From a virus: 64,000 bases of DNA. Made by a program: the position numbers and the translations under genes. Positions within the stretch are counted from its first letter, which is position 1; every line of letters starts with the position of its first letter. The notes under the pieces were generated by a model, which worked only from the letters and a program-made list of their open reading frames with translations, ran no database searches and was not told the DNA's origin. Of this stretch, positions 7,651-54,630 are shown piece by piece. Location of the stretch: positions 45,521 to 109,520 of the IMG/VR virus record IMGVR_UViG_3300005617_000004; one strand, 5' to 3'.

Positions 7651-7704
7651 GCGCATCGTACACCTTTCCTCCGCGCTTATGCGCAAACCCCAAGGACGCT
7701 CACC

Positions 7705-8205
7705 ATGAGCCTGCTCGACATCACCGCCCAGGAACTCAACTCGCTGGCCGCACCGGTCCAGGCACAGGTCAAGGCCCTGCTGAACATCCGCCAGGGGCTG
7801 TTCGACATCCTCGGCGCGTTCCCGCAGGACAACGTCCTGCCCTACTTCTACAGCTGCCAGAACACCACGGCGGACAACACCGCGATCACCGCCAACGGCA
7901 CGGTGCAGAACTCGATCCGCATCAGCGCGGACTCGGCGTTCATCGCCATCTCGGTGCGCGGCACCTCGGACGGCGACTTCACCGCGTTCATGCGCCAGGA
8001 CGCCAGCGACCGGCAGCTGATGAACATCGCGGTCAACTCGAACGCGATCATGGGCACCGCCGAGCGCCCGGGCTTCTTCCACAAGCCGCTGCTGCTCGCC
8101 GCCTCGACCACGGTCAGCTTCGACTTCACCGACCTGTCGGGCTCCACGAACCAGCTGTGGTGGACCCTGGCCGGCTTCAAGGTGTACAACCGCAAGCTCG
8201 GCTAA
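7705..8205 (+). CDS. Putative single jelly-roll capsid/penton protein
   Basis: 166 aa with an all-beta pattern (ISADSAFIAISV..GTAERPG..KPLLL..LAGFKVY) and strongly biased codon usage. Confidence 0.55.
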   Translation: MSLLDITAQELNSLAAPVQAQVKALLNIRQGLFDILGAFPQDNVLPYFYSCQNTTADNTAITANGTVQNSIRISADSAFIAISVRGTSDGDFTAFMRQDASDRQLMNIAVNSNAIMGTAERPGFFHKPLLLAASTTVSFDFTDLSGSTNQLWWTLAGFKVYNRKLG

Positions 8206-8251
8206 TCCCGAGGCTTGCGCTTGATGGCCCTCGAAGCACCCTGGAGGCGTC

Positions 8252-8938
8252 ATGCCCCTTGATGAAGATGACAGCATCGTGTCGCATTCGCGTTACGACC
8301 AGTTGTTCGGCTCGCCGCCCACCGTCTCGCCCCTGGAACAACCAGGGGCGAAGGGGCGCATGCACTCTCGAGAAATCTTCGAGGGTGAGCCGCCGGGCAC
8401 CCTGCAGCCCGCGCCGCTGCTGACCCCCGTGCAGCGGGCGATCGTCGACGCAACCGTCGATCGTCTCGCCAAGATCGCGCGCAACACCAACTTCACCGCG
8501 TCGCTGCCCGCGCACTCGGTGCCGATGTACTGGTCCAACAACATCGACAAGTCGGCCACGGTCGTGGTGCCGGCCGCGGTGACCCCGTACCAGACGGTGG
8601 TCGAATACACCGCGCCGCCGAGCCGGTACGGCCGCATCAGCCAGTACGGGTTCGACGTCGCTGGGGGTGCCTATACCTACGACGGCTCCTTGCTGTGGCG
8701 GTTCATGCTCAACGGCGTGCCGGTGCAGGACCTGTTCGACATCGCCGAGCACCGCGGCTCCCTGGTGCAGCCGGCCGAGACCTTCATCATCGTGCCCATG
8801 GGCCAGAAGCTGCAGTTCCAGGTGGCACGTGCAGTCGCTGCCCTGGCAGACGACACGGTCGCCATGAAGTTCAAGGGCTGGGACTGGCTGCTGCGCCGCA
8901 ACGCAGAGGGCACCAAGTCGTCGATCACGGCGTTCTAA
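8252..8938 (+). CDS. Beta-sandwich virion protein, paralogue 1
   Basis: YTAPPSRYGRI..LLWRFMLNG..FKGWDW. Confidence 0.55.
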   Translation: MPLDEDDSIVSHSRYDQLFGSPPTVSPLEQPGAKGRMHSREIFEGEPPGTLQPAPLLTPVQRAIVDATVDRLAKIARNTNFTASLPAHSVPMYWSNNIDKSATVVVPAAVTPYQTVVEYTAPPSRYGRISQYGFDVAGGAYTYDGSLLWRFMLNGVPVQDLFDIAEHRGSLVQPAETFIIVPMGQKLQFQVARAVAALADDTVAMKFKGWDWLLRRNAEGTKSSITAF

Positions 8939-8950
8939 GAGGATCGCACC

Positions 8951-9475
8951 GTGGGCGAGCTGTCCATCCAAGATCAGGTGCTGGTCGCCGAGCTCCAGCG
9001 CGTGCTGCGCGACAGCAACGTGCCCTTCCGTCGGCCGTCGAACGAGCAGCCCACGTTCTGGTCGTACCCGGTCTGCGAGACCAACATCATCCCGCTGGCC
9101 AACGGCGGCTGGACCGACATCTTGACTCTGCGCGGGCTGCCGCAGTTCACGCAGCGGGTCGACAAGTACGTGGCGACCACGTTCGGCGACCAGTCGCTCA
9201 GCGGCGTCGAGTTCCGGTTCGTGTTCAACGGGACACTGGCCCCCAACATGACGCTGGCCAACGGCGTGGACCACAACAAGGTGACTCCCTCCACCTTCCC
9301 TGTGGTGTTCCAGACCACCTCCTTCCTGGTCGAGGAGAAGGACTACTTGATCCTGCAGGCCCGCAACACCAACGTCTTTCAGCAGCTGGTGTGCGCCGCC
9401 CTGACCGGCTGGCGCTACAACAACCCGAACAGCGTCGACAAGACTCAGCGCTCGGTGATCACCGATGATACCTAG
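8951..9475 (+). CDS. Beta-sandwich virion protein, paralogue 2
   Basis: VEFRFVFNG..LTGWRY. Confidence 0.55.
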   Translation: MGELSIQDQVLVAELQRVLRDSNVPFRRPSNEQPTFWSYPVCETNIIPLANGGWTDILTLRGLPQFTQRVDKYVATTFGDQSLSGVEFRFVFNGTLAPNMTLANGVDHNKVTPSTFPVVFQTTSFLVEEKDYLILQARNTNVFQQLVCAALTGWRYNNPNSVDKTQRSVITDDT

Positions 9476-10493
9476 CCCCCAGCAGCTGGCGTGGGCGCTC
9501 AGCAAGGTGCAGGGAGACCTGTCCCGGTGGCCGCAGGCCCGGTCGGCGAAGTTGATGTTCCACCAAGGCACGACGCCAGTGATTCTGGTCACCGGCGCAG
9601 CCCCGAAGCGCCCTGAGCAGCTGCCCAAGGCCGTCCGGGTGTTCGTCGACGCGCTGCCCTACAACGTCCGCATCCTGTGGAAGGGCCCCACCGACCCGCG
9701 CGCGTCGATGCCGATCCTGCCCTCGACACCGATGCAGGACAAGCAGCTCGACAACGACATGTGGGCAGGAGCCCCTGAAGTGGTCAATGCGCCGCTGAAG
9801 ATGTGGGGCCCGACCGAGCACCAGCCCGACCTGCCGATCGCCCAGGGTCCGCCGCTCGCCACCCAGGCCGAGTACCAGTTCGCTGCTTCCGTACGACTGC
9901 CGCAGTTCGCCACCCCGAACTTCTGGGCCAAGCCGTTCTACAAGACCGGCAACATCTGCTGCCCGCACTACGCGACCTTGACCCGCGTCTTCTCGTATCG
10001 GGTGCCGTCGGACTACCTGCTGATCATGACCGGGCTCAGCTACGAGTTCTCGGATCTCGTGACCTTCGACCAGTTCACCATGCACGTCCAGCGCGACGGC
10101 AACGAGCTCGGCCGCTGGAACGACATGCGCGCGCTCAACACGCCCGACCCGGCGGAGCAGTACGTGTTCGCCGGCCATTACCGGCCGTTCCCCTTCTACG
10201 GCCGGTTCGACCACGACCAGATGCTGTCCATCGCCGTGACCGTGCTGGGGCCGTATCCGTTCACCAAGACGCCGGCCGACACGCTCGGCGGCTGTGTCAC
10301 CGTCCACCCGTCCGGCTGGCTCGGTAGCCTGTACGACAACCGCGATGGCGGCGCACGGCCAGTTGACATGGGCGAATTGAACGACATTGCTTTGGGCGAA
10401 CCCAGCGATGACGGCGGATTCTCCCGTCTCCATGGTGGTGGCCACGCTCGTCAGGGTCAGTGGCAGCCCGATGACACAGGGACCAACGGATGA
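9465..10493 (+). CDS. Beta-sandwich virion protein, paralogue 3, with N-terminal extension
   Basis: FSYRVPSDY..MHVQRDG..PSGWLG. Confidence 0.5.
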   Translation: MIPSPQQLAWALSKVQGDLSRWPQARSAKLMFHQGTTPVILVTGAAPKRPEQLPKAVRVFVDALPYNVRILWKGPTDPRASMPILPSTPMQDKQLDNDMWAGAPEVVNAPLKMWGPTEHQPDLPIAQGPPLATQAEYQFAASVRLPQFATPNFWAKPFYKTGNICCPHYATLTRVFSYRVPSDYLLIMTGLSYEFSDLVTFDQFTMHVQRDGNELGRWNDMRALNTPDPAEQYVFAGHYRPFPFYGRFDHDQMLSIAVTVLGPYPFTKTPADTLGGCVTVHPSGWLGSLYDNRDGGARPVDMGELNDIALGEPSDDGGFSRLHGGGHARQGQWQPDDTGTNG

Positions 10494-11248
10494 GCGCCTG
10501 CCCTGATTGCCCGTCGACCTCCACCGCTCCGCCATGCGTAGCGCCAACGCCCCCGGACGGCTCGAATTGCTGCCTCAAGCTGCGCTACACGTGCACGCTG
10601 GTCGACGATGTCGCGACCTGGGAGCTCGACGCGGTCAACACCGAGTGCGTCGACAACGCGAGCTGCAGCCCGTACCTCGAGACCTGCACCGGTGACGAGT
10701 ACACGCTGGAGCAGCAGAACGGCTGCGTGTGCTTCGCGCTGCCGGATCCGCTGCCGGAGCCGTGCTGCGACCCGACCTGCGGCTCTACGACGACCACCAG
10801 CACCACGTCGACGACCAGCACCACGACCACGACGACCAGCACGACCACGACGACTACCACCACGACGACTACCACCAGCACAACGACTACCACCACGACA
10901 ACGACCACGACGACCACCGCCGGGGCGTGCCAGAGCTACTCGTTCTCCGACACCTTCACCATCGGAGGCGGCACCGAGCCGCACGACCGCACGTACACGC
11001 TGCCGTCGAACGCCTGCGCAGGCGCGGTCGAGTTCAGCATCAGCCCGAACGGGCAGCCGCCAGACGCGGGCGCCATCGTCTGCGTCACCTTTGATGGCGG
11101 ATCACCCATCTGCTCGGCCTGCATCACCTCTGGCGGCGGTCTGGTAGTGATACCGGCGGGCACCACCACCGTATTCATTTCCACCTCGGGAGGATGCAAC
11201 GACCCGCTGGGCCAAATTGAGAACGTGTTCATCACCATAACCGGCTAA
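10490..11248 (+). CDS. Cys-rich protein with a 45-residue Thr/Ser mucin-like stalk
   Basis: About 20 Cys split over two domains joined by a pure T/S tract. Confidence 0.75.
   Translation: MSACPDCPSTSTAPPCVAPTPPDGSNCCLKLRYTCTLVDDVATWELDAVNTECVDNASCSPYLETCTGDEYTLEQQNGCVCFALPDPLPEPCCDPTCGSTTTTSTTSTTSTTTTTTSTTTTTTTTTTTTSTTTTTTTTTTTTTAGACQSYSFSDTFTIGGGTEPHDRTYTLPSNACAGAVEFSISPNGQPPDAGAIVCVTFDGGSPICSACITSGGGLVVIPAGTTTVFISTSGGCNDPLGQIENVFITITG
10784..10918 (+). repeat. Low-complexity ACN-codon tract encoding poly-Thr/Ser
   Basis: 45 consecutive Thr/Ser codons with varied synonymous codons. Confidence 0.9.
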
Positions 11249-11257
11249 GGGGCGTTC

Positions 11258-12007
11258 ATGAGACCCTTCATCAGCGTCCTTTGCCCCACCTACGGCCGCA
11301 CCGCGCTGCTGTCGGAGCTCGTCGAGTCGTTCCAGCGCCAGACCTACGACGGTCGCGTCGAGCTGGTCATCCTGAACGACCGCAGCGACCAGGAGCTGCA
11401 ATACCAGGGCAGTAACCCGATCCGGATCATCAACGTGACCACCCGGTTCGAGACGCTGGGCCATAAGCGCAACGCGCTGGTCGACCTCGCCGACGGGTCT
11501 CATGTGTGCTTCTGGGACGACGACGACATCTACCTCGGCACCCACCTGGAGAAGCTCGCCGACCTGCTGGATGACATCGTTCCTCCGGTCAGCGGTGCCG
11601 CTGAAGCTCATCAATGGCAGATGCGCGCCGACGGTAGTGTGTTCATCCAGGGGTCGGGCCTGCTGCACTCGCTGCTGATCAAGAAGACCGCCATCGAAGC
11701 CGTGGGCGGGTTCCCCCTGACGGCCCAGCTGCAAGACGTCGGTCTGGTGCAGAAGCTCGTCAGGGCTCGGCTATTCCCGAACATCTACGGCGGCCGCGCT
11801 GCGACCATGCCGAGCACCCTGTACCGGGCGGCCGGCATCGACACCGCGCACGTCGGCGACTTCTCGGCCACCGAGGCGCATGACGGCTTTGTCGAGGCTG
11901 AATCGCAATTCTCTGAGCCGACCGGGCGTATCGTGCTCGTCCCTGAATGGCGAGAGAATTACGAGGCCAAGCTCCGCAAAGCCTGGGACGACTACATCCG
12001 GCAGTAA
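11258..12007 (+). CDS. Glycosyltransferase family 2 (GT-A fold)
   Basis: ISVLCPTYGR..ELVILND..LGHKRN..FWDDDD (DxD motif). Confidence 0.9.
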   Translation: MRPFISVLCPTYGRTALLSELVESFQRQTYDGRVELVILNDRSDQELQYQGSNPIRIINVTTRFETLGHKRNALVDLADGSHVCFWDDDDIYLGTHLEKLADLLDDIVPPVSGAAEAHQWQMRADGSVFIQGSGLLHSLLIKKTAIEAVGGFPLTAQLQDVGLVQKLVRARLFPNIYGGRAATMPSTLYRAAGIDTAHVGDFSATEAHDGFVEAESQFSEPTGRIVLVPEWRENYEAKLRKAWDDYIRQ

Positions 12008-12048
12008 TCGCCTATTGCGTTGCTCCATAGGATGCCTATGCCTGGGGC

Positions 12049-13758
12049 ATGCTGACCTTCTTCGTTTATGCGCTGGCGTGCGTCGGCGTACACCGGATCT
12101 GGAACTTCGAGTCGATCTTCCAGGGTCCACGTACGTGGCTGCTGCGCTACTGGTGGGCCAAGCCGGTGACCTGCCAAGCATGCAACGCCCTGTGGATTGC
12201 CGTGCTGCTCCTGCCGTTGGCGTACATCGCCTCCGCGCCGGGGGCGTGGCTGGCCCTGGAGGCGCTGGCCGCCTACCCGCTGGTGCGCGGTGTCCTGTGG
12301 GTCTACAAGATGGCGAGCCACTGGGAGGTTTCCGCTCGCCGGTCTGCGGGAGTGACGCGCGCCGTGGTTGAACCTCCGACGGATGCCGTCCGAAAACCAG
12401 CGCCCGCCGAGCCGCAACCTCCCACAGACGGTGGCTGCCGCGACTGTGAACGGAAGCGATCGGCTATCGTCGCTGAACAGACGCATGCCAAGGGCTTCGA
12501 TCGTCGCATCGTGCTGCTCACCACCCTGTCGGACTTCTCCCCCAGCTACAGCCTGACCAGCGTCATCTGCGACCAAGCCCGGATGCTGGCCGACAACCCG
12601 CGCTGGCTGGTGCAAATCTGGGTCAACGAGAACGCCAACCTCAAGCAGGCGCCGACAGACTTGCCGGAGAACGTCGAGATCCGCCGCATCGTGCCGCAGG
12701 TGCCGTGGGCCGACGACATCGTCAATACCGAGGGCGCGCAGCGCCTAGAGCGCGAACTCCGGTTGAAGCTGCTGCCCCTCGGCAACGCTACCATCATCGC
12801 GCACGACCTGATCTTCCAGAGCGCGTTTGTCACCTTCGCAGCTGCAATTCATCGTCTGGGGTCGATGCCTGGGTTCGCGTGGCTGCACGTGTGTCACAGC
12901 GCCGTCGGGGTGCGCCCTCCCGGGCTGGCGTTCCCGCGAGCCCTGCGCTACACGCTGCCCGAGGGCCACAAGCTGCTGTGCCTCAACGAAGCCGAACGTA
13001 CTCGCTTGGCGGCCTACTACGCCGCCCCTTCCGTGGAGGTGCTGGTGTGCCCGAACGCACGCGACATCACGGCGTTCGGGGCGTTCAGCGCCCAGGCGGC
13101 CGAGGTCATCCGTGCCGGGCGGTTGCACTTGGCCGACGTGGTCCAGGTGTATCCCCTGTCCACTACCCGCATGAAGGACAAGGGGGTCCATCATGTCATC
13201 AGGATCCTCGCGAATCTAGGCCGGCTGGGCCGCACGACACGACTGGTGCTGGTGAACGCGCACGCGAACGGAGCGGCGGAGAAGGCTGCCTTGGCCGACC
13301 TGCGACAGTACGTGGTCGAGCAGGGGCTGCCGCCGACCGCTCTGGTGGTCACCAGCGAGGTGCTGCCCGCCACCGAGGCGCAAGGAGTGTCGCAGGCGGT
13401 GGTTCGCGACCTGTTCTCGGTCAGCAACGTGTTCATCTTCCCGTCGGTCAGCGAGGCGTCGCCCCTGGTGCTGGTCGAAGCCGCTCTCAGCGGGTGCCTG
13501 ATCGTCACCAACGCGTCGTTGCCGGTGCTGAAGACGATCGTGCCCAACGGCTTGGCGATTACCGCGCATTTTGGCAGCACGTTGAACCCAGAGGCCGACC
13601 ATGGGGTCACCGAGACGGTCGCCGCGCAGATAGACGACGTCCTGACGCGGTCGAAGATCAACCTCGCCAAGCGCCACGTGCTCAAGCATTCCAGCTTCCT
13701 TGCAGTTGGATCGCAATTGCGATCCCTGGTCGAAGGAGTTCCGCTACGGGGTAAATAA
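12049..13758 (+). CDS. GT4-like glycosyltransferase (GT-B fold) fused to an N-terminal DUF1360-like membrane CxxC domain
   Basis: C-terminal VFIFPSVSEASPLVLVEAALSG (Ex7E motif); N-terminal TM segments with CQACNALW. Confidence 0.8.
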   Translation: MLTFFVYALACVGVHRIWNFESIFQGPRTWLLRYWWAKPVTCQACNALWIAVLLLPLAYIASAPGAWLALEALAAYPLVRGVLWVYKMASHWEVSARRSAGVTRAVVEPPTDAVRKPAPAEPQPPTDGGCRDCERKRSAIVAEQTHAKGFDRRIVLLTTLSDFSPSYSLTSVICDQARMLADNPRWLVQIWVNENANLKQAPTDLPENVEIRRIVPQVPWADDIVNTEGAQRLERELRLKLLPLGNATIIAHDLIFQSAFVTFAAAIHRLGSMPGFAWLHVCHSAVGVRPPGLAFPRALRYTLPEGHKLLCLNEAERTRLAAYYAAPSVEVLVCPNARDITAFGAFSAQAAEVIRAGRLHLADVVQVYPLSTTRMKDKGVHHVIRILANLGRLGRTTRLVLVNAHANGAAEKAALADLRQYVVEQGLPPTALVVTSEVLPATEAQGVSQAVVRDLFSVSNVFIFPSVSEASPLVLVEAALSGCLIVTNASLPVLKTIVPNGLAITAHFGSTLNPEADHGVTETVAAQIDDVLTRSKINLAKRHVLKHSSFLAVGSQLRSLVEGVPLRGK

Positions 13759-13785
13759 CGACCTACCGCCACTAACCCCTTCGGA

Positions 13786-13812
13786 TTGCATTATGGCAGC
13801 CATGCGTACCCT
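13786..13812 (+). promoter_or_regulatory. Promoter of fibre gene 1 with a very short leader
   Basis: TTGCAT-N15-TACCCT, six nt before the ATG at 13819. Confidence 0.35.
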
Positions 13813-13818
13813 GTGCGC

Positions 13819-16296
13819 ATGGCAAGTCTCATTTTTGCAGTAGACGCCAACACCCTTCTCGACACTCCAACGGCCTCCGGCCTCGAGACGCTGGCCAACG
13901 CGCAGTTCGCGGCGCTGTTGAGCGACATCGTCACCGGCGTGTCGTTCACGACCGACGATCAGTCGCGCACCAGCCGCGACTTGCGGCTGACGGTCACCTA
14001 CACCGATGGCGCGGCGGCCATCTCGACCCCCTTCCTGGTCAAAGCCTTCACCGGCCGCACGGTCGCCGACGTTGCGGCCGCAGCCAACGCCTTCACCGCG
14101 GCCCACACGACCTACTTCTTCTCGGGCCTGTTCACCCAGGTGCTGACCAACACCGCACGTCGCTCCACGATCGTGTACGGCCTGATCGTGTACAACACGT
14201 CGCTGACCGACGGCGCGTCGCACTATGCGGGCAGCGGTGCCGGCGGAGGTGGTGGAGGCACCGTTGGCGGCTCGGGCACCGCCGGCAAGCTCGCAGTGTG
14301 GACGTCGGGCACCGACATCGGCGACAGCGCGCTGACCGAAGCCACCAACACCATCACCTCGTCGAAAGAGCTCATCACCCTTGCCACCGCTGCTGCCCGC
14401 GCAGGCTTCAACCTGCCGCACGGCACGGCACCCAGCGCGCCCGTCAACGGCGACCTGTGGACCACGACCGCCGGGCTGTTCGCCCGCATCAACGGCGCAA
14501 CGGTGACGTACGGATCCGGCACCATCGGTGGCACCGCCGTGCTCAACCGAGTCGCGTACGGCTCGGGCGCCAACACCCTGCAGTCGTCGGCCAACCTGAC
14601 CTACAACGGCACGACCCTCTCAGTTGCAGCCGGCGGTCGCATGGGCGTCGGCTCGGCCGGCCTGACGTCGAACGGACTGACCCTCAGCATGATCGGCACG
14701 CTGAGCACCGCGGATCAGTCCGGGTTGAACGTGTTCGTGACGGGCAGCGTTGCTGCCACGGCGACGGTTACCGGCGTCGTGAGCGGCGCCGGCACGGCGA
14801 CGTCGGCCACCACCGCCGACGTCATGGCCTTCTGGGCGCTGCCCATCACGCCGGGCAGCGGCAGCACCATCACGCGCGGCACCGGCATCCACATCAGCGA
14901 CCCGACGGCCGGCACCAACCGCGCATGGCTCTCGCTGGGTACCAGCGTCAGCGTACCCTCCTACGTGGGCAACTTCGCGATCTACAGCGACATCGCGCAG
15001 CCGAGCTCGTTCGCGGGCACCATCGCCATTCTGGACACCACGACCACGTCGTTCACGACCGCGGGCGGCGGCTCGTTTGCCAAGCTGCTGCAGACGGTTG
15101 CCTCGGCCAGCGGGTCCGCGGGCTTCAATCTGCCGCACGGCGCTGCTCCTTCCGCGCCAGTCAACGGCGACCTGTGGACCACCACCACTGCGTTGTTCGT
15201 GCGCATCAACGGCGCGACGGTGCAGCTGGGTGGAGGCGGCCTCACCGGCTCCCTGACCGCCACGCGCGTCCCGTTCGCCAGCGGCGCCAGCACCCTGACC
15301 GACAGCGCGTTCATGACGTTCAGCACCGCAGCAGGGCTGGTGGTCAACCGGTCGGGTGCGGCCAACGTCACCATGCTCGGCTCGAACGCCGGCAACACGA
15401 CCATGACGGCGGTCGACTGCGTACTGATCGGCGACAATGCCGGCAACGCGATCACCTCGGGCGCGCAGTGCACGTTCCTCGGCAAGGACGCAGGCCTCGC
15501 CAACACACAGGGCAGCGGCAACACCTTCATCGGGTTCTCGGCCGGCGTGCTCAACGGCACCAGTGGCGCGCGCTCAGGCATCACCGCGGTCGGCTACAAC
15601 GCCGGCAGCATGAGCACCGGCGGCAGCAACACCTTCCTCGGTGCCACCAGCGGCGCGAACTCGGTCACGGGTACCGCCAACATCTTCATCGGCCGGTCGA
15701 GTGGCGACGGCACCGGCACCGCCGCCAGCAACCGGTTCGTAGCTGGCTCCGACTCGTACCCGGTCGCCGATGTCTGGTTCGGCCAGGGCGAGACGAACGC
15801 GGCTGCGGTCGCGTGGACCCTGCACGGCACCAACGGCGCGGGCGCCGACAAGGTCGGTGGCGCACTTCAGCTCGCTGGCGGCCAGGGCACCGGCACGGGC
15901 GTCGGCGGCAACATCGTGTTCCAGACGGCGATTGCCGGCGGGTCCAGCAGCACCCTCAACGCGCTGACCACTGGCCTGACCATCAATCAGCGCAAGACGG
16001 CGGACTTCGCCTATGGCCTTGTGCTGCCCGTCCGCACGGTGACCGCGACCACCGACACGGCCACCTACACCGACTACACCATTCAGTGCGACACGACATC
16101 CAACAACATCGCGCAGACCCTGCCGGCATCGCCCCCGACCGGTCTCGTCATCAACGTGAAGAAGACCGCCGCAGGCAACACGCTGACCATCACCGCCAGC
16201 GCAGGCAACATCGATGGCGCCGCGAGCGTCGTGGTGACGACCCTGAACCAGTCGTACTCGTTCCAGTACAACGGCACACAGTGGATCATCCTGTGA
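13819..16296 (+). CDS. Fibre/spike protein 1 (receptor binding)
   Basis: G/A/S/T-rich; Gly linker after an N-terminal domain of about 135 aa; duplicated AGFNLPHG..NGDLWTTT module; GxxAG beta-roll repeats; C-terminus YNGTQWIIL. Confidence 0.8.
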   Translation: MASLIFAVDANTLLDTPTASGLETLANAQFAALLSDIVTGVSFTTDDQSRTSRDLRLTVTYTDGAAAISTPFLVKAFTGRTVADVAAAANAFTAAHTTYFFSGLFTQVLTNTARRSTIVYGLIVYNTSLTDGASHYAGSGAGGGGGGTVGGSGTAGKLAVWTSGTDIGDSALTEATNTITSSKELITLATAAARAGFNLPHGTAPSAPVNGDLWTTTAGLFARINGATVTYGSGTIGGTAVLNRVAYGSGANTLQSSANLTYNGTTLSVAAGGRMGVGSAGLTSNGLTLSMIGTLSTADQSGLNVFVTGSVAATATVTGVVSGAGTATSATTADVMAFWALPITPGSGSTITRGTGIHISDPTAGTNRAWLSLGTSVSVPSYVGNFAIYSDIAQPSSFAGTIAILDTTTTSFTTAGGGSFAKLLQTVASASGSAGFNLPHGAAPSAPVNGDLWTTTTALFVRINGATVQLGGGGLTGSLTATRVPFASGASTLTDSAFMTFSTAAGLVVNRSGAANVTMLGSNAGNTTMTAVDCVLIGDNAGNAITSGAQCTFLGKDAGLANTQGSGNTFIGFSAGVLNGTSGARSGITAVGYNAGSMSTGGSNTFLGATSGANSVTGTANIFIGRSSGDGTGTAASNRFVAGSDSYPVADVWFGQGETNAAAVAWTLHGTNGAGADKVGGALQLAGGQGTGTGVGGNIVFQTAIAGGSSSTLNALTTGLTINQRKTADFAYGLVLPVRTVTATTDTATYTDYTIQCDTTSNNIAQTLPASPPTGLVINVKKTAAGNTLTITASAGNIDGAASVVVTTLNQSYSFQYNGTQWIIL
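14401..15222 (+). repeat. Internal 105-bp duplication in fibre 1 (14401-14505 and 15118-15222)
   Basis: AGFNLPHGTAPSAPVNGDLWTTTAGLFARINGATV versus AGFNLPHGAAPSAPVNGDLWTTTTALFVRINGATV. Confidence 0.85.
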
Positions 16297-16679
16297 GCTT
16301 TGCGCCCTTGAACGTCATCGGGTCCCTCAAGTCTGCCAACTTCAACTCGACGGCCGATCAAGCCATCCCAATCCAGCTGCCGGCCGGCTTCACCAAGTAC
16401 GTGGTGACCGGGCTGGTGGCGTACAATCCCAGCACGAGCCTGACTACTGCGGCTGGAGGCCTGTACAACGCCACCAGCAAACCCGCGGGCGGCATCCTGG
16501 TAGCCGCAGCGCAGGTGTACACCGCGCTCACCGCGGCGGGGAAGTTCTTGCCCGTGACGTTGGCCGCACTCGCTGGCACTGACCTGCAGACCGCGGCCAA
16601 CGTGTACTTGTCGCTCACTCTCGCGCAAGGTGGAGCCGCTACGGCCGACGTCGCGGTCCTCGGGTATTTCCTGCCATGA
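16293..16679 (+). CDS. Small beta-rich virion or fibre-associated protein
   Basis: GTG overlaps the fibre stop; reads MSFAPLNVIGSLKSANFNSTADQAIPI. Confidence 0.7.
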   Translation: MSFAPLNVIGSLKSANFNSTADQAIPIQLPAGFTKYVVTGLVAYNPSTSLTTAAGGLYNATSKPAGGILVAAAQVYTALTAAGKFLPVTLAALAGTDLQTAANVYLSLTLAQGGAATADVAVLGYFLP

Positions 16680-16960
16680 CCTACACTCCTGGTGGAAGCG
16701 TGGCGGTCCAAGTCAACTTCGGCACGACGTCTAATTTCTCGGTGCGGACGACCGTCACCGGCGTGCCATGGGTCACCGCCGGGTCCCATTTCACCGTCAC
16801 ACCCGCGGGCAGCACCGTCGATCACGGCGTTGAAGACGCGGTGATCGAGGGCCTCACCGGCGGTGTGGAAAACCCGATCGCTGGTACCGGCTTTGACCTC
16901 GTCGTATCCAGCCCCAACGGCTCCAAGGGCCTCTACGCCTTCAACGTGATAGGAAACTAA
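16676..16960 (+). CDS. Small beta-rich virion protein
   Basis: ATGA-coupled, Gly/Thr/Val-rich. Confidence 0.65.
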   Translation: MTYTPGGSVAVQVNFGTTSNFSVRTTVTGVPWVTAGSHFTVTPAGSTVDHGVEDAVIEGLTGGVENPIAGTGFDLVVSSPNGSKGLYAFNVIGN

Positions 16961-16961
16961 C

Positions 16962-18440
16962 ATGTCCGTCAATATCCAGGGTGGCAGCAGCACTACCAAC
17001 CAAGCGAACGTCACTGACAACAACCTGAACGTCACGTTGCCGTCGGTTTATGACGAGTCGGGCTACAACCGGCCGCTGGGTGAAGTCGACGCCGGACTCG
17101 TGCGTGGCACGCCGACGCTGTTGGCGCCTGAGGTGTCGGAAGACTTCCGCCAGCGCGCAGAGCTCGACACCCTGCTCGCCTACGACGATTTCAACTACGT
17201 GGCGCAGGACACCGGCAAGTACATCTTCCGCAACACCACCATGACCGGCTCGTGGGGCGGCGGCGCGTTCAGCACCAACGCGTCGGCCATCACCACGACC
17301 ACCACCGGCTGTCAGCTGCTGACCCGTCAGTATTTCCCGGTGTTCGGCGGTGCCGAGACCTACGCCTACTTCAAGCTCGGCTTCACCGGCACCTGGGCGG
17401 TCACCAACAAGACCATCGACATCGGCCTGATGACCGCGAACACGACCACCCCGTTCGCCCCGACCGACGGCGTGTTCCTGCGCGCCAACTCCACGGGTCT
17501 GTTCGGCGTCGTCAGCGTCAACGGTGTCGAGCAGACTTCGTCGCCCTTCGTGGTCTCCTCCGGCGGCATAGATTGGGTTCCTACCATCGGCACGTTCTAC
17601 GACTGCATCGTTACCTGCGGTGAAAACGTCGCCGTGTTCTGGATGGACCTGCGCGACGGCAACGGCTACGTGATGATGGCCCGCATCAGCACGGCTCCGG
17701 GTTCGGGCGCGCCTCTCTACGCCGGCGCTCTCCAGTTCGGCATCCGCGACGCCAACACTGGCACCACGTCAGCCGTCATGGGTGCCAAGATCAGCCGCTG
17801 GTCGGTGTCGCAGGGCGGCTACCACACGACCCGCCCGTGGGCCGAGCAGGTGATATGCGCAGGCATGAGCGGCGCGCAGGGTCAGCAAGGCGGTACGATG
17901 GGCTCGACGGCCCTGTACACCAACTCGCTGGCCCCGGGTGCCGGCGCGGTGATGACCAACACCACCGCGGCACTGGGCACCGGCCTGGGCGGTCAGTTCG
18001 CCGCCCTGCCGACCCTGGCGGCCAACACGGACGGCATCGTTTGCTCCTACCTGAATCCGGTGCCGACCACCGGCATCACTGGACGCGTGCTGGTGGTCAC
18101 CGGCATCAAGATTTCCAGCATTGTGACCACGGTGCTGGCGGGCAACGCGTCGCCGGTGGTGTACGCCTACTCGGCCGCCTGGGGACATGACGCACTGTCG
18201 CTGGCCACCGCCGAAGCGGCCACGACCAAGGCCCCGCGCAGAAAGGCTTTGGGCTTCCACCAGTTCGCAGCCGCGGCTGCGGTCTACACGTCAGGAGGCG
18301 CCGACATTTTCCTGCCGGTAGACGACATCGCGGTCAACCCGGGTGAATACTTCCAGATCGTCGCCAAGAACATCGGCGTGGTCACCACCACCGGCGTGAT
18401 CATGTTCCACATCTCCATCCAGTCGCACTGGGAGGCCTGA
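16962..18440 (+). CDS. Virion accessory or receptor-binding protein
   Basis: 492 aa, Thr/Gly/Ala-rich, beta-strand pattern. Confidence 0.6.
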   Translation: MSVNIQGGSSTTNQANVTDNNLNVTLPSVYDESGYNRPLGEVDAGLVRGTPTLLAPEVSEDFRQRAELDTLLAYDDFNYVAQDTGKYIFRNTTMTGSWGGGAFSTNASAITTTTTGCQLLTRQYFPVFGGAETYAYFKLGFTGTWAVTNKTIDIGLMTANTTTPFAPTDGVFLRANSTGLFGVVSVNGVEQTSSPFVVSSGGIDWVPTIGTFYDCIVTCGENVAVFWMDLRDGNGYVMMARISTAPGSGAPLYAGALQFGIRDANTGTTSAVMGAKISRWSVSQGGYHTTRPWAEQVICAGMSGAQGQQGGTMGSTALYTNSLAPGAGAVMTNTTAALGTGLGGQFAALPTLAANTDGIVCSYLNPVPTTGITGRVLVVTGIKISSIVTTVLAGNASPVVYAYSAAWGHDALSLATAEAATTKAPRRKALGFHQFAAAAAVYTSGGADIFLPVDDIAVNPGEYFQIVAKNIGVVTTTGVIMFHISIQSHWEA

Positions 18441-18461
18441 GCGCATCCTTGACTCCCTAGA

Positions 18462-18494
18462 AGTCTCCGTAGGGTCGAGGGGCCTACGGAGACT
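18462..18494. promoter_or_regulatory. 12-bp inverted repeat covering the RBS of the gene at 18497
   Basis: AGTCTCCGTAGG-N9-CCTACGGAGACT. Confidence 0.65.
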
Positions 18495-18496
18495 CT

Positions 18497-18970
18497 ATGG
18501 CTGGCCCCACCCCGCGCTTCTTCGTCGAACTCACCAGCACGCAGGCCTTTTGCCTCGCAAGCCTGCTGACCCGCGCCACCAACACGCCGGGCAGCCAGCA
18601 GACGCACCGCAGCCGAGTGCTGAACAAGCTGCACACCCAGCTGAAGGAGTTCAACGACGCGCGGCTGGGTCTCGTCAAGGCTCATGCCGTCCTCGACGAG
18701 GCCGGCGAGCCGGTTGTCAACGGCGACACGTACGCGCTGAAGGACAAGAAAGCCTTCGACGCCGCCTTCGATACCCTGCAGACGGAACTCAAGATCATCC
18801 TGGATGGCCGTACGGACGAGATCATGAACCGCGCGCTCGGTGCCGTGTACGAGATCCTGACCACCGACCAGTGCCCTGCGCTCCTGCCGCCGCAGCCTGG
18901 GCAGGCGTTCGAGCAGTCCGAGGCGTTCGTGTTCATGCAACTGGTGGACTCGTTTATCAAGACGTCCTAG
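18497..18970 (+). CDS. Fibre-associated chaperone-like protein
   Basis: Helical; LKEFNDARLGLVKAHAVLDEAGEPVVNGDTY resembles small proteins that follow phage fibre genes. Confidence 0.45.
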   Translation: MAGPTPRFFVELTSTQAFCLASLLTRATNTPGSQQTHRSRVLNKLHTQLKEFNDARLGLVKAHAVLDEAGEPVVNGDTYALKDKKAFDAAFDTLQTELKIILDGRTDEIMNRALGAVYEILTTDQCPALLPPQPGQAFEQSEAFVFMQLVDSFIKTS

Positions 18971-23634: not shown

Positions 23635-24033
23635 ATGGCACGCTCGTTCATCACTTCCGAGAAGCCCGGCTCTGCCGCCTTCATCCTGGACATCAACACC
23701 CAGCTGGCGCTGCTGACCGACCCCACCATCCGTGGTATCGAGTTCAACATCGACGAGCGCCAGCGGCGCAACCAGCGCCAGTACAGCGGCGTGATCAGCT
23801 ACGACACCGCCGGCGCGTCCCTGGCGACCCCGTTCCTGCTGAGCGTGCTGGAGGCCGGCACCATGGCGGAGCTCAACACCGCCCTGGCAGCGTTCATCGC
23901 AGCCAACCCGACCTACTTCTACTCGCACTCGGTCTACAAGTTCCTGTACACCGGCGCCCGCGATCCCCGCTACATCGCCCTGACGCTGTACAACACGACC
24001 GGCGGCGCCGACGCCAACTACCTGCCCTTCTAA
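23635..24033 (+). CDS. Stand-alone copy of the fibre N-terminal anchor domain
   Basis: ATPFLL..AFIAANPTYFYS..LYNT matches the N-termini of both fibres. Confidence 0.75.
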   Translation: MARSFITSEKPGSAAFILDINTQLALLTDPTIRGIEFNIDERQRRNQRQYSGVISYDTAGASLATPFLLSVLEAGTMAELNTALAAFIAANPTYFYSHSVYKFLYTGARDPRYIALTLYNTTGGADANYLPF

Positions 24034-53962: not shown

Positions 53963-54630
53963 CGCGGCTCCTCCGGGAAGAATCGCTTGAATACCCCGTC
54001 CGGATTATCGACCAAGTCCTGCGTGAACATCCAAGTATGGAGCCACGTACCGTCCATCAACGGCAAATGTGACAAGAAAGGCAGTTCGTTGCGATTACCG
54101 TTTTTATCGCGGAACGAGAACCCGTCGCGCTTTATCATAGCCTCCAGCTTCAGCACGTCGATGTCGTAGAGCGCGATCTTGTGAGCGGCACAAAACCGCC
54201 GTTTTTGCGGGGTTATTGGCGTCGTAGCGGTAAGCTCAAACACCGCTGTCAATCCAAGATTACTCTCGCAGGCGACGTCAAATATGAACATGGGCTTGAG
54301 GTTGACCTCCAACGCGGCCTCGGGAGTTGGATAGCACCACGACTCATTTTCGTGCAACCAGTTCTGGGCGCCGAACTTTATCCCTAGCTGCGTCCACGAA
54401 AACGTACGACCCTTCGCCTTATGTGGACCCGGGTAGACATACTCAACCACAACGTGCCCGTTGGCGTGGTCGCTGCGAATGGGGCCATAGCCGGTCCAGA
54501 GCCGTTTGATAACACTCTGCACGACCAACTTGGCGTCGAAGTGCGCGTCGGACTCGCGGTTTCTGAACGCGGTCTTCTGGCGGTACTCCGCCGCAGACAT
54601 TCCATAGGGGTAGTCGCCATCATCGTTCAT
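53959..54630 (-). CDS. CoiA-like PD-(D/E)XK nuclease
   Basis: ESDAHFDAK..E..FDVAC..VFELTAT; visibly more AT-rich than flanks. Confidence 0.45.
   Translation of the reverse strand: MNDDGDYPYGMSAAEYRQKTAFRNRESDAHFDAKLVVQSVIKRLWTGYGPIRSDHANGHVVVEYVYPGPHKAKGRTFSWTQLGIKFGAQNWLHENESWCYPTPEAALEVNLKPMFIFDVACESNLGLTAVFELTATTPITPQKRRFCAAHKIALYDIDVLKLEAMIKRDGFSFRDKNGNRNELPFLSHLPLMDGTWLHTWMFTQDLVDNPDGVFKRFFPEEPR

What the first reader, a model, noticed from the sequence alone, without database searches (positions are those of the whole stretch)
10490..13758. Candidate virion glycosylation cassette: Cys-rich mucin-like protein, GT2, and a CxxC-membrane-domain GT4 fusion
Seen: directly after the capsid-like genes there is a protein with two Cys-rich domains (about 20 Cys) joined by 45 consecutive Thr/Ser residues. 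Varied codons in the tract suggest selection on the protein rather than slippage. It is followed by a GT2 and then a GT4 whose N-terminus is a membrane domain with CQAC (DUF1360-like) and a second CRDC in the linker. Known: Thr/Ser tracts are the classical O-glycosylation acceptors of mucins, and membrane CxxC domains act in disulfide relays. Inference: this is a self-contained module that folds and O-glycosylates a mucin-like stalk on the virion at the viral membrane, giving a glycan shield or adhesin.
Basis: partly seen in the sequence, partly recalled or inferred. Interest (0 to 1): 0.85.

Follow-up and report, generated by a model that had tools for sequence, protein, structure and literature searches.

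The report
Poly-threonine virion protein with glycosyltransferases
An uncultivated 110-kb virus encodes a cysteine-rich protein with a 45-residue threonine/serine stalk. It is followed by a sugar-transferring enzyme that keeps this position across the whole virus clade, so the virus probably sugar-coats one of its own surface proteins, though no sugar has been shown.

Summary
Gene 10490-11248 encodes 252 aa with 20 Cys and an unbroken 45-residue Ser/Thr run. Gene 11258-12007 is a GT2. Gene 12049-13758 is a GT-B/GT4 enzyme with an invariant EX7E motif, behind a 100-aa helical, probably membrane domain and two invariant CxxC motifs.

Across about 11 divergent lineages of the same uncultivated clade, a Cys-rich protein with a Ser/Thr tract lies directly upstream of the GT4 fusion in 9. 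It lies 2.3 kb upstream in one and was not seen in one. The GT2 is optional: a relative rated complete has none.

- Self-glycosylation of a surface appendage is the best reading (about 0.45), by analogy with mycobacteriophage virions and serine-rich-repeat adhesins.
- The disulfide-relay idea is not supported. Charge distribution puts both CxxC motifs in the cytoplasm, and a variant without the membrane domain keeps both, which suggests a Cys4 metal site.
- "Capsid-like" neighbours and a "viral membrane" remain untested.

Earlier notes of this scan describe similar poly-Thr/GT cassettes in other phages, with different enzymes. I did not check them.

Verdict: a new variant of a known kind.

The parts
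10490..11248 (+). Cys-rich, poly-Thr protein (252 aa, no signal peptide). Its start overlaps the stop of the upstream gene by 4 nt.
   Evidence: ORF. 20 Cys and a 45-residue Ser/Thr run. AF2 model: mean pLDDT 79.7, two folded beta domains joined by a disordered tract. Homologs lie at the same position in relatives.
10490..10783 (+). N-terminal Cys-rich module (residues 1-98, 14 Cys). This is the conserved part of the protein.
   Evidence: Eight Cys and W44 are invariant in 7 divergent loci. The profile finds only 51 clusters among 1.84 billion proteins. Residues 21-100 have pLDDT above 90 and are all-beta. No Pfam match.
10784..10918 (+). 45-residue Ser/Thr tract (39 Thr, 6 Ser): the proposed O-glycosylation acceptor and stalk.
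   Evidence: pLDDT about 43, so predicted disordered. Tract length ranges from about 10 to 102 residues in relatives. Indels between near-identical strains fall only here.
10925..11245 (+). C-terminal beta-sandwich domain (residues 146-252, 6 Cys): the variable, probably distal part.
   Evidence: VIA-align gives Z 8-10 to GOLD, pre-peptidase C-terminal, collagen-binding and CBM51-type sandwiches. Foldseek matches are weak. C-terminal regions of 40 relatives fall into at least 6 unrelated groups plus 9 singletons.
11258..12007 (+). GT2 (GT-A) glycosyltransferase, 249 aa, with DDDD at residues 87-90. Accessory, not conserved across the clade.
   Evidence: PF00535 E 4.8e-12. Best PDB sequence matches are PglI, GalT1, an unnamed glycosyltransferase (5tze, 5tz8) and SpsA, over the nucleotide-binding half only. 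Present in L004, L006, L007, L026 and L033. Absent from L002/G001, L008, L014, L015, L020 and L024.
12049..13758 (+). Fusion protein (569 aa): helical membrane-type domain, disordered linker, then a GT-B/GT4 glycosyltransferase.
   Evidence: 46 full-length homologs at 38-100% identity. AF2 mean pLDDT 92.1.
12049..12348 (+). N-terminal helical domain (residues 1-100) with about three hydrophobic helices; DUF1360-like only at lead level.
   Evidence: Helices 2-20, 22-31, 35-41, 46-59 and 64-100 at pLDDT 86-96. Hydropathy peak 1.87 at residues 45-63. Lys+Arg distribution indicates N-terminus out and C-terminus in. DUF1360 tests.
12172..12183 (+). First CxxC (C42-Q-A-C45), at the predicted cytoplasmic start of the second hydrophobic helix.
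   Evidence: C42 and C45 are invariant in 45 of 45 homologs. Topology.
12436..12447 (+). Second CxxC (C130-R-D-C133), at the start of the helix that leads into the GT-B domain.
   Evidence: C130 and C133 are invariant in 45 of 45 homologs. Kept in the L017-type variant, missing in L011.
12496..13755 (+). GT-B fold, GT4-type catalytic domain (residues 150-569), with EX7E at E469/E477 (nt 13453-13479).
   Evidence: Foldseek matches to MshA, sucrose-phosphate synthase, glycogen synthase, WaaG, BshA and PimB', E 1e-9 to 6e-12. E469, E477, R374 and K378 are invariant. PF13692 matches 45 of 45 homologs and PF00534 42 of 45.
7705..10493 (+). Function unknown.
   Evidence: No Pfam or PHROG match. Same order in L002, L008, L015, L017, L020, L033 and L034. 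GC3 of 0.98 for the first gene is the highest in the genome.
13786..16296 (+). Context: downstream fibre-like protein (836 aa) whose roughly 130-aa N-terminal domain recurs in two other window genes.
   Evidence: BLASTP of the N-terminal domain against the 939-aa protein (19809-22628) gives E 8e-29, and against the 132-aa ORF (23635-24033) E 6e-14. Homologs follow the GT4 fusion in nearly all loci.

Best explanation
This is a conserved late-gene pair, plus one accessory gene, of an uncultivated clade of viruses of roughly 100 kb.

The 252-aa protein is read as a virion surface appendage with three parts:
- a conserved Cys-rich N-terminal module, probably the end that docks on the particle;
- an extended Ser/Thr stalk;
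- a swappable C-terminal beta-sandwich, probably a binding domain.

The 569-aa enzyme is anchored in the host cytoplasmic membrane by its N-terminal helical domain, with its retaining GT4 catalytic domain in the cytoplasm. There it uses a host nucleotide sugar to put the first sugar on Thr/Ser of the stalk before assembly. Where present, the soluble GT2 extends that glycan. The four invariant Cys (two CxxC) most likely form a cytoplasmic Cys4 metal site that ties the catalytic domain to the anchor. The many Cys of the substrate would oxidise to disulfides after release.

Shown here: gene anatomy, folds, catalytic motif, conservation, and conserved adjacency.

Inferred: the acceptor, the timing, virion location, membrane topology, and metal binding.
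For: Adjacency is conserved.
- A Cys-rich protein with a Ser/Thr or Thr/Pro tract lies directly upstream of the GT4 fusion, or of GT2 plus GT4, in 9 of about 11 lineages that have enough upstream sequence. GT4 identity to the window in these runs from 34 to 94%.
- It is 2.3 kb upstream in one further lineage.
- L033 and L034 also carry it after the fourth upstream gene.

The block looks like one transcription unit.
- Intergenic distances are a 4-nt overlap, then 9, 41 and 27 nt.
- No promoter-like or terminator-like site lies inside it.
- This is unlike a lysogenic-conversion moron.

The enzyme looks active.
- AF2 pLDDT is 92 with a GT-B fold.
- EX7E (E469/E477), R374 and K378 are invariant in 45 homologs.

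The substrate candidate is unique and well placed.
- It is the only Ser/Thr-dense protein in the genome.
- The tract is predicted disordered between two folded domains.

The protein has the architecture of an appendage.
- The N-module is conserved while the C-terminal domains fall into at least 6 unrelated groups.
- The C-domain is a binding-type beta-sandwich.
- In relatives, tandem copies of the same module follow an N-terminal domain that weakly resembles the fibre anchor domain (hhalign 74%, E 2.8e-5). That anchor domain is used three times in this window.

GT2 behaves as an optional extender.

Precedents.
- Phage-encoded glycosyltransferases glycosylate capsid and tail-tube proteins of mycobacteriophages (Freeman 2023, as cited in PMC11256854 and PMC12619734).
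- From my own knowledge: GT4 enzymes start the cytoplasmic O-glycosylation of serine-rich-repeat adhesins, and further glycosyltransferases extend the glycan. PMC6291802 shows only that several glycosyltransferases, some with GT4 domains, are encoded in those clusters.
Against: - No glycan, virion proteome or host is available. Everything rests on gene context within one virus clade, and there conserved order alone could explain the adjacency.
- The nearest solved structures (MshA, WaaG, PimB', BshA, glycogen and sucrose-phosphate synthases) act on small molecules, lipids or glycans, not proteins.
- An integral membrane anchor is more usual for enzymes with membrane-bound acceptors.
- L011 has the GT4 fusion with no Thr-rich gene in the 870 bp upstream.
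- About 20 of 55 members of the Cys-module family have no Ser/Thr tract. Their gene context could not be fetched.
- The similarity to the fibre anchor domain is weak: hmmsearch E 0.16-2 when scaled to a database of one million.
Confidence: 0.45

Rival explanations
1. The GT4 fusion, with the GT2 where present, acts on a membrane-bound acceptor: a glycolipid, a lipid-linked glycan or an envelope polymer. It might remodel the host envelope during infection or lysogeny, or build glycolipid for a virus membrane. On this reading the poly-Thr tract is only a flexible linker, and the adjacency reflects conserved gene order.
For: - The enzyme carries an integral membrane-type anchor.
- Its structural neighbours include the lipid and LPS enzymes WaaG and PimB'.
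- The GT2's best sequence matches act on lipid-linked glycans, for example PglI, TuaG and EpsD.
- The genome encodes a serine integrase, so lysogeny is possible.
- L011 keeps the enzyme without an adjacent Thr-rich gene.
Against: - The genes sit inside the late structural block with no promoter-like or terminator-like site of their own, not beside the integrase.
- No flippase or GT-C partner, as found in Gtr-type conversion systems, was seen next to them.
- The immediate Thr-tract neighbour persists down to 34% GT4 identity, while the genes around the pair vary.
Confidence: 0.25
2. The enzymes glycosylate other virion proteins, such as the four abundant upstream proteins or the fibres, as in mycobacteriophage capsids. 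The poly-Thr protein is not the acceptor, or not the main one.
For: - In mycobacteriophages the acceptors are capsid and tail-tube subunits.
- The GT genes lie between conserved structural-looking genes and fibre genes.
Against: - No other protein of this genome has a Ser/Thr-dense stretch.
- The closest and most constant neighbour of the GT4 fusion is the Thr-tract gene.
Confidence: 0.1
3. One reading: the CxxC membrane domain together with the linker CxxC is a disulfide relay that oxidises the 20 Cys of the neighbouring protein while the GT domain glycosylates it, so the enzyme both folds and coats its substrate.
For: - Four Cys in two CxxC motifs are invariant in 45 homologs.
- The neighbouring protein has 20 Cys, with 8 invariant Cys in the N-module, a spacing typical of disulfide-rich domains rather than zinc knuckles, and no signal peptide.
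- The genome has no Erv1/ALR or thioredoxin match, so no other viral oxidase was recognised.
Against: - Lys+Arg counts put both CxxC motifs on the cytoplasmic side, unlike DsbB or VKOR, whose active CxxC faces the periplasm (my own knowledge).
- The L017-L019 variant lacks the DUF1360-like domain but keeps a CxxC at residues 4-7 of a soluble N-terminus and also the second CxxC. That fits a Cys4 metal site.
- No quinone-binding or flavin-binding feature was identified.
Confidence: 0.1
4. The glycosyltransferases modify the virus DNA, as the T4 glucosyltransferases do.
For: Many phage glycosyltransferases act on DNA (as reviewed in PMC12619734).
Against: - The enzyme is membrane-anchored.
- No thymidylate-synthase or hydroxymethylase family match was found in the genome.
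- The genes lie in the structural block rather than the replication block.
Confidence: 0.02

Closest known systems
Mycobacteriophage virion O-glycosylation (Che8, Rita; Freeman et al. 2023 Cell Host Microbe, known here only through citations in PMC11256854 and PMC12619734)
   Same: Phage-encoded glycosyltransferases are thought to decorate the phage's own virion proteins in the host cytoplasm, producing a glycan coat.
   Different: - There the acceptors are the C-termini of capsid and tail-tube subunits, and the GT genes lie near the far end of the genome.
- Here the candidate acceptor is a separate modular protein with an internal 45-residue tract, encoded directly upstream of the enzymes.
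- Here the enzyme is a membrane-anchored GT4 fusion.
Serine-rich-repeat adhesin glycosylation of Gram-positive bacteria (GtfA/GtfB and extending transferases; PMC6291802, PMC6973325, PMC5207161)
   Same: From my own knowledge: a long Ser/Thr-rich tract is O-glycosylated in the cytoplasm, first by a GT4-family enzyme and then by a variable set of further transferases. This matches the conserved GT4 plus optional GT2 seen here. The gene cluster sits next to the substrate gene.
   Different: - No GtfB-like partner and no accessory Sec export genes are present, and this enzyme has a membrane anchor.
- GtfA was not among the top 50 structural matches.
- This is an analogy, not membership.
Poly-Thr / Cys-module fibre proteins paired with GT27- or GT60-like glycosyltransferases in phages of Planctomycetota
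   Same: The same theme: small Cys-rich modules on Thr-rich linkers, with a glycosyltransferase as the constant neighbour. One relative of the present virus was binned with a Planctomycetota MAG.
   Different: - Those notes describe GT-A enzymes resembling animal mucin-type transferases, in tailed prophages.
- Here the constant enzyme is a GT-B/GT4 with a membrane domain, in a clade without recognisable tail genes.
- I could not compare the sequences. The notes are unchecked AI leads and are not counted as evidence.
DUF1360 (PF07098) small membrane proteins of bacteria and phages
   Same: About 100 aa, helical and hydrophobic. Look-alike clusters are small viral proteins of 104-117 aa. Four of 45 homologs give weak HMM matches.
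   Different: - The window protein itself does not match the model.
- Here the domain is fused to a glycosyltransferase and accompanied by a second CxxC.
- The family has no known function. Only two papers mention it.
DsbB / VKOR membrane thiol oxidases
   Same: A CxxC at the start of a membrane helix plus a second Cys pair in a loop.
   Different: - The predicted topology puts both motifs in the cytoplasm.
- There are three helices rather than four or five.
- There is no sequence match.
- The Cys pair survives replacement of the membrane domain.

Membership tests
CAZy GT4 / GT-B retaining glycosyltransferases (Pfam Glycos_transf_1, Glyco_trans_1_4) | Two-Rossmann-domain GT-B fold | tested here: met
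   AF2 pLDDT 92.1. Foldseek E 6e-12 to 1e-9 to MshA, WaaG, BshA, PimB' and glycogen and sucrose-phosphate synthases.
CAZy GT4 / GT-B retaining glycosyltransferases (Pfam Glycos_transf_1, Glyco_trans_1_4) | Pfam model match above the curated cut-off | tested here: inconclusive
   The window protein scores 24.8 against 26.4 and 25.3 against 27 bits, just under the cut-offs. At E up to 0.1, PF13692 matches 45 of 45 homologs and PF00534 42 of 45.
CAZy GT4 / GT-B retaining glycosyltransferases (Pfam Glycos_transf_1, Glyco_trans_1_4) | EX7E catalytic / sugar-binding motif in the C-terminal domain | tested here: met
   E469-x7-E477 is invariant in 45 homologs, as are R374 and K378.
CAZy GT4 / GT-B retaining glycosyltransferases (Pfam Glycos_transf_1, Glyco_trans_1_4) | Glycosyl transfer activity and identity of donor and acceptor | not testable with these tools
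   Needs an enzyme assay.
GT2 (Pfam PF00535, GT-A) | Pfam match above the cut-off, and an Asp-rich (DxD-type) motif | tested here: met
   46.6 bits against 23.3. DDDD at residues 87-90, read from the translation, and also present in the L033 homolog.
DUF1360 (PF07098) | HMM match at or above the 21-bit cut-off | tested here: not met
   The N-terminal 150 aa gives no match at E up to 10, nor does the whole genome. Four of 45 homologs match weakly, best E 0.0017. The Atlas look-alike scored 0.82, a lead only. Resemblance is possible; membership is not shown.
Mucin-like O-glycoprotein | Long Ser/Thr-rich, disordered tract | tested here: met
   45 consecutive Ser/Thr, pLDDT about 43. The Pfam Mucin match is weak and compositional only (17.5 against 34.7 bits).
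Mucin-like O-glycoprotein | Glycans attached to the tract | not testable with these tools
   Needs mass spectrometry.
Mucin-like O-glycoprotein | Entry into a secretory pathway (signal peptide) | tested here: not met
   The N-terminus MSACPDCPSTSTAPP has no hydrophobic core (by inspection, no predictor was run). Any glycosylation would have to occur in the cytoplasm.
Phage virion glycosylation systems (mycobacteriophage type) | Phage-encoded glycosyltransferase(s) together with a virion protein that carries the glycan | tested here: inconclusive
   The glycosyltransferases are present. Virion location of the candidate acceptor is inferred from gene position and architecture only.
DsbB/VKOR-type membrane disulfide relay | Redox CxxC on the extracytoplasmic face of the membrane | tested here: not met
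   Mean Lys+Arg counts are 5.2 in loop 15-41 and 2.0 in residues 87-101, against 0.09 at the N-terminus and 0.31 in turn 63-66. This puts CxxC-1 at the cytoplasmic face. It is a prediction, not an experiment.

The most novel reading that the evidence does not exclude
The fusion enzyme does two jobs for one substrate. A cytoplasm-facing, membrane-embedded CxxC domain, with the linker CxxC as a shuttle, would oxidise the disulfide-rich modules of the neighbouring protein inside the bacterial cytoplasm, while the attached GT4 domain glycosylates its threonine stalk. That would be a viral 'fold-and-coat' machine, in a virus lineage of about 100 kb that lacks every recognisable tailed-phage structural gene.
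Probability: 0.07. Interest if true: 0.85.

Novelty: new variant of a known kind. Interest (0 to 1): 0.55.

Why it matters
Glycosylation of phage particles was shown experimentally only recently, and only in mycobacteriophages. This cassette would extend it in three ways:
- to an unrelated, uncultivated clade of soil and bog viruses;
- to a different enzyme, a membrane-anchored GT4 fusion family with no annotation;
- to a different kind of acceptor, a dedicated stalked appendage built from a new Cys-rich module family (only 51 clusters in 1.84 billion proteins).

The substrate and enzyme genes are adjacent and small. The prediction can therefore be tested directly by co-expression and mass spectrometry, without culturing the virus.

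A glycan-coated, domain-swapping stalk would matter for host recognition, resistance to proteases, and particle stability in soil. The invariant Cys4 feature and the DUF1360-like anchor could also give a first functional handle on a domain of unknown function that is common in phages.

Tried and rejected
Tools and searches that gave nothing:
The gene context of the 46 GT4 homologs and of the Cys-module proteins without tracts could not be fetched. Context comes only from the search for related loci.
- The single-protein scan of viral contigs with the GT4 fusion found nothing, as did the scan with P0080. Alignment A3 had no stretch conserved enough to scan with.
- Megablast of 7700-18500 against GenBank phages: no match.
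- PDB sequence search with the GT4 fusion: only chance-level matches.
- Stand-alone relatives of the N-terminal domain: none by word-indexed search among shorter proteins.
- The Atlas held no structure for either protein queried.
- The Cys-module profile was not found in 300 sampled genomes of the phylum of the MAG that holds L027, so the host remains unknown.
- Freeman et al. 2023 (PMC10527164) is not held. It is cited second-hand.

Ideas rejected or left open:
- DsbB/VKOR-like relay: rejected on predicted topology and on the L017 variant.
- Viral Erv1/ALR or thioredoxin: none found.
- DNA-modification route: no thymidylate-synthase family match.
- The N-terminal Cys module was never searched alone for a known fold. 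I do not claim that the module is a new fold.
- My GC3-based gene picker wrongly preferred antisense ORFs across the poly-Thr gene. The + frame is accepted because its protein sequence is conserved in distant relatives.

Full report
**Where this is.** The window is bases 45521-109520 of a 109,520-bp IMG/VR virus record with direct terminal repeats, rated complete. GC content is about 65%. The genome has no close relative among GenBank phages.

The finding lies in a block of co-oriented + strand genes running from about 7705 to about 27000. In order these are:
- four conserved genes of 166, 228, 174 and 342 aa (7705-10493);
- the Cys-rich poly-Thr gene (10490-11248);
- a GT2 (11258-12007);
- the GT4 fusion (12049-13758);
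- an 836-aa fibre-like gene (13786-16296).

Spacing is a 4-nt overlap, then 9, 41 and 27 nt. No promoter-like or terminator-like site was found inside the block. That scan is a consensus scan and is weak evidence for an unknown host.

- The 252-aa protein has 20 Cys and an unbroken run of 45 Ser/Thr at residues 99-143.
- With Ser+Thr at 12% in this proteome, the chance of such a run is about 1e-41 per position. No other protein of the genome has a Ser/Thr-dense stretch.
- The Thr codons are mixed (ACG 17, ACC 17, ACT 3, ACA 2), while the genome strongly prefers ACC (62%).
- Tandem Repeats Finder still sees imperfect 18-33-nt units. A strain about 98% identical (L004) differs by two in-frame indels, both inside the tract.
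- So composition is held by selection while length drifts by slippage.

**The Cys-rich protein.** An AF2 model built on 33 homologs shows three parts:
- a small all-beta N-terminal module (residues 21-100, pLDDT above 90);
- a disordered tract (pLDDT about 43);
- a seven-strand beta-sandwich (residues 146-252, pLDDT 80-95).

The C-domain aligns to GOLD, pre-peptidase C-terminal, collagen-binding and CBM51-type sandwiches at Z 8-10. Foldseek matches are weak. This is a common binding-type fold and nothing more specific.

The N-module has eight invariant Cys and one invariant Trp in seven divergent loci, with no Pfam match. Its profile finds only 51 clusters among 1.84 billion representative proteins. 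The Cys spacing (x6, x17, x5, x6, x12, x13, x3) and the even count look like a disulfide-rich domain rather than zinc knuckles. That is inference. There is no signal peptide.

**Family architecture.**
- Of 55 family members inspected, 30 have a Ser/Thr run of 6 or more, and 22 have a 20-residue window that is at least 70% Ser/Thr. About 20 have no tract.
- Tracts range from about 10 to 102 residues. They are TTT-type, TS-type or TTPP-type.
- The C-terminal regions of 40 short members fall into at least 6 unrelated groups plus 9 singletons.
- L033 combines an L002-type N-module with a window-type C-domain.
- This pattern is typical of phage receptor-binding proteins: a conserved proximal module, a variable linker, and swapped distal domains.
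- Longer relatives (for example P0075, P0080, P0081) carry three or four tandem modules behind an N-terminal domain. That domain resembles the N-terminal domain of the window's fibre in a profile-profile comparison (hhalign 74%, E 2.8e-5, aligned in register). A plain HMM search supports it only weakly.
- The fibre domain itself occurs three times in the window (E 8e-29 and 6e-14).
- Together this makes a virion appendage the best guess for the Cys-rich protein. It is not shown.

**The GT4 fusion.** Forty-six full-length homologs (38-100% identity) keep the same architecture.

The AF2 model has mean pLDDT 92.1. It shows:
- five helices in residues 2-100;
- a disordered linker (residues 102-128);
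- a helix starting at C130;
- a GT-B domain.

Foldseek matches MshA, sucrose-phosphate and glycogen synthases, WaaG, BshA and PimB' at E 6e-12 to 1e-9. E469-x7-E477, R374 and K378 are invariant, so the enzyme looks active. These neighbours act on small, lipid or glycan acceptors, and the fold says nothing about a protein acceptor.

C42, C45, C130 and C133 are invariant in all 45 aligned homologs.

The 'DUF1360-like' label stays at lead level. The window protein has no match to the Pfam model. Four of 45 homologs match weakly. The Atlas score was 0.82. No stand-alone relatives were found.

**Topology and the CxxC pair.** Mean Lys+Arg counts across the 45 homologs are as follows:

| Segment | Mean Lys+Arg |
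|---|---|
| N-terminus | 0.09 |
| Loop 15-41 | 5.2 |
| Turn 63-66 | 0.31 |
| Residues 87-101 | 2.0 |

By the positive-inside rule the N-terminus is outside and the catalytic domain is in the cytoplasm, as a nucleotide-sugar enzyme requires. Both CxxC motifs then face the cytoplasm.

A distant group (L017-L019) replaces the membrane domain with a different N-terminus, yet keeps a CxxC at residues 4-7 and the second CxxC. L011 lacks the second CxxC.

I therefore read the four Cys as a Cys4 metal site, roughly 50% likely, rather than a DsbB/VKOR-like relay, about 10%. The genome has no Erv1/ALR or thioredoxin match. How the substrate's Cys are oxidised remains open; oxidation after lysis is the simplest answer.

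**Conserved pairing.** Related loci came from viral, metagenome and genome collections. I analysed them by BLASTP against the window's proteins and by inspection.

| Position of the Cys-rich Ser/Thr-tract gene | Lineages |
|---|---|
| Immediately upstream of the GT4 fusion, or of GT2 plus GT4 | window/L004, L006, L002 group, L008, L012/L014, L015, L020 (one small Cys-rich ORF between), L013/L024/L025, L005 |
| 2.3 kb upstream | L017/L018 |
| None within 870 bp | L011 |

L033 and L034 also carry the gene after the fourth upstream gene, before their contigs end.

The GT2 is present only in window/L004, L006, L007, L026 and L033. G001, the complete 96.8-kb relative that holds L002, has no PF00535 match at all. 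The constant pair is therefore tract protein plus GT4 fusion, and the GT2 is an accessory.

All these loci belong to one virus clade with conserved gene order. The pairing is therefore suggestive and not proof of an enzyme-substrate link.

**Mechanism proposed.** The anchored GT4 domain places the first sugar on Thr/Ser of the stalk in the cytoplasm. GT2, where present, extends the glycan. The glycosylated, stiffened stalk holds a swappable binding domain away from the particle.

This parallels serine-rich-repeat adhesins, where from my own knowledge a GT4 starts the glycan and variable transferases extend it (related reading: PMC6291802; PMC6973325 and PMC5207161). It also parallels mycobacteriophage virion glycosylation (as cited in PMC11256854, and PMC12619734). 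I put this at about 0.45.

The main rival, about 0.25, is a membrane-bound lipid or glycan acceptor. The anchor and the structural neighbours favour it. Gene position and the constant Thr-tract neighbour speak against it. DNA glycosylation is very unlikely: the enzyme is membrane-anchored and no hydroxymethylase-type gene was found.

**Context left open.** About 30 proteins of this genome were scanned against Pfam or PHROGs. None matched a capsid, portal, terminase or tail family. The matches found were replication and recombination genes:
- a DNA helicase;
- a serine integrase;
- an SNF2 helicase;
- a DNA methylase;
- a 1632-aa family-A polymerase.

The terms 'capsid-like' and 'viral membrane' in the finding could not be tested.

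One relative's contig was binned in a Planctomycetota MAG. The Cys-module was not found in 300 other sampled genomes of that phylum.

**Earlier notes of this scan.** They describe poly-Thr / Cys-module fibre proteins paired with GT27- or GT60-like enzymes in phages of Planctomycetota. This is the same theme with different enzymes. I could not compare the sequences and do not count those notes as evidence.

**Verdict.** The features are real and strongly non-random, and the gene pair is conserved. Glycosylation of the virus's own stalked protein is plausible but unproven. The disulfide-relay part is not supported. I class this as a new variant of a known kind, phage virion glycosylation, involving two unannotated protein families.

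Noticed in passing
window 7705-10493: The four conserved upstream genes have no Pfam or PHROG match. The first has GC3 of 0.98, the highest in the genome, which hints at very high expression. Genes 2, 3 and 4 give weak cross-matches in relatives (E 1e-3 to 5e-7), so they may be paralogs. The Atlas look-alikes of gene 1 are unannotated viral clusters.
   Followed up: partly
window 13819-14268, 19809-20220, 23635-24033: One N-terminal domain of about 130 aa is shared by the 836-aa fibre, the 939-aa protein and a stand-alone 132-aa ORF (BLASTP E 8e-29 and 6e-14). In related viruses a weakly similar domain precedes tandem Cys-rich modules (hhalign 74%).
   Followed up: partly
whole genome G000 (window and L028-L030): None of about 30 proteins scanned, most of them among the largest, matched a terminase, portal, capsid or tail family. 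The virion type of this 110-kb clade is unknown.
   Followed up: partly
L029:2912-4411 (genome 22912-24411, outside the window): A 499-aa serine recombinase/integrase (phrog_95, E 2e-34), so the virus may be temperate.
   Followed up: no
window 54627-59525 (- strand): A 1632-aa protein whose last roughly 400 residues match family-A DNA polymerase. The first roughly 1200 residues are unassigned.
   Followed up: no
L017:8544-10487, L018:9617-11488, L019:410-2308: A variant of the GT4 enzyme in which the membrane-type N-terminal domain is replaced by a soluble-looking domain and an Ala/Ile-rich hydrophobic stretch. A CxxC at residues 4-7 and the second CxxC are both kept.
   Followed up: partly
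L033:12707-13462 compared with L002:9212-9997 and window 10490-11248: Domain shuffling across the poly-Thr linker: L033 joins an L002-type N-module to a window-type C-terminal domain. The linker may act as a recombination joint.
   Followed up: partly
L027 (PLEW01000002.1, 62 kb): A contig binned in a Planctomycetota bog MAG matches the IMG/VR virus behind L002 in every gene compared (identical BLASTP results). It is probably a virus fragment in the bin and is only a weak host hint.
   Followed up: partly
L020:6353-8035 and L015:6674-9661: Large relatives of the Cys-rich protein (560 and 995 aa, 51 Cys each) string several module types on poly-Thr or Thr/Pro linkers. L015 adds a roughly 540-aa N-terminal region of unknown fold.
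   Followed up: no
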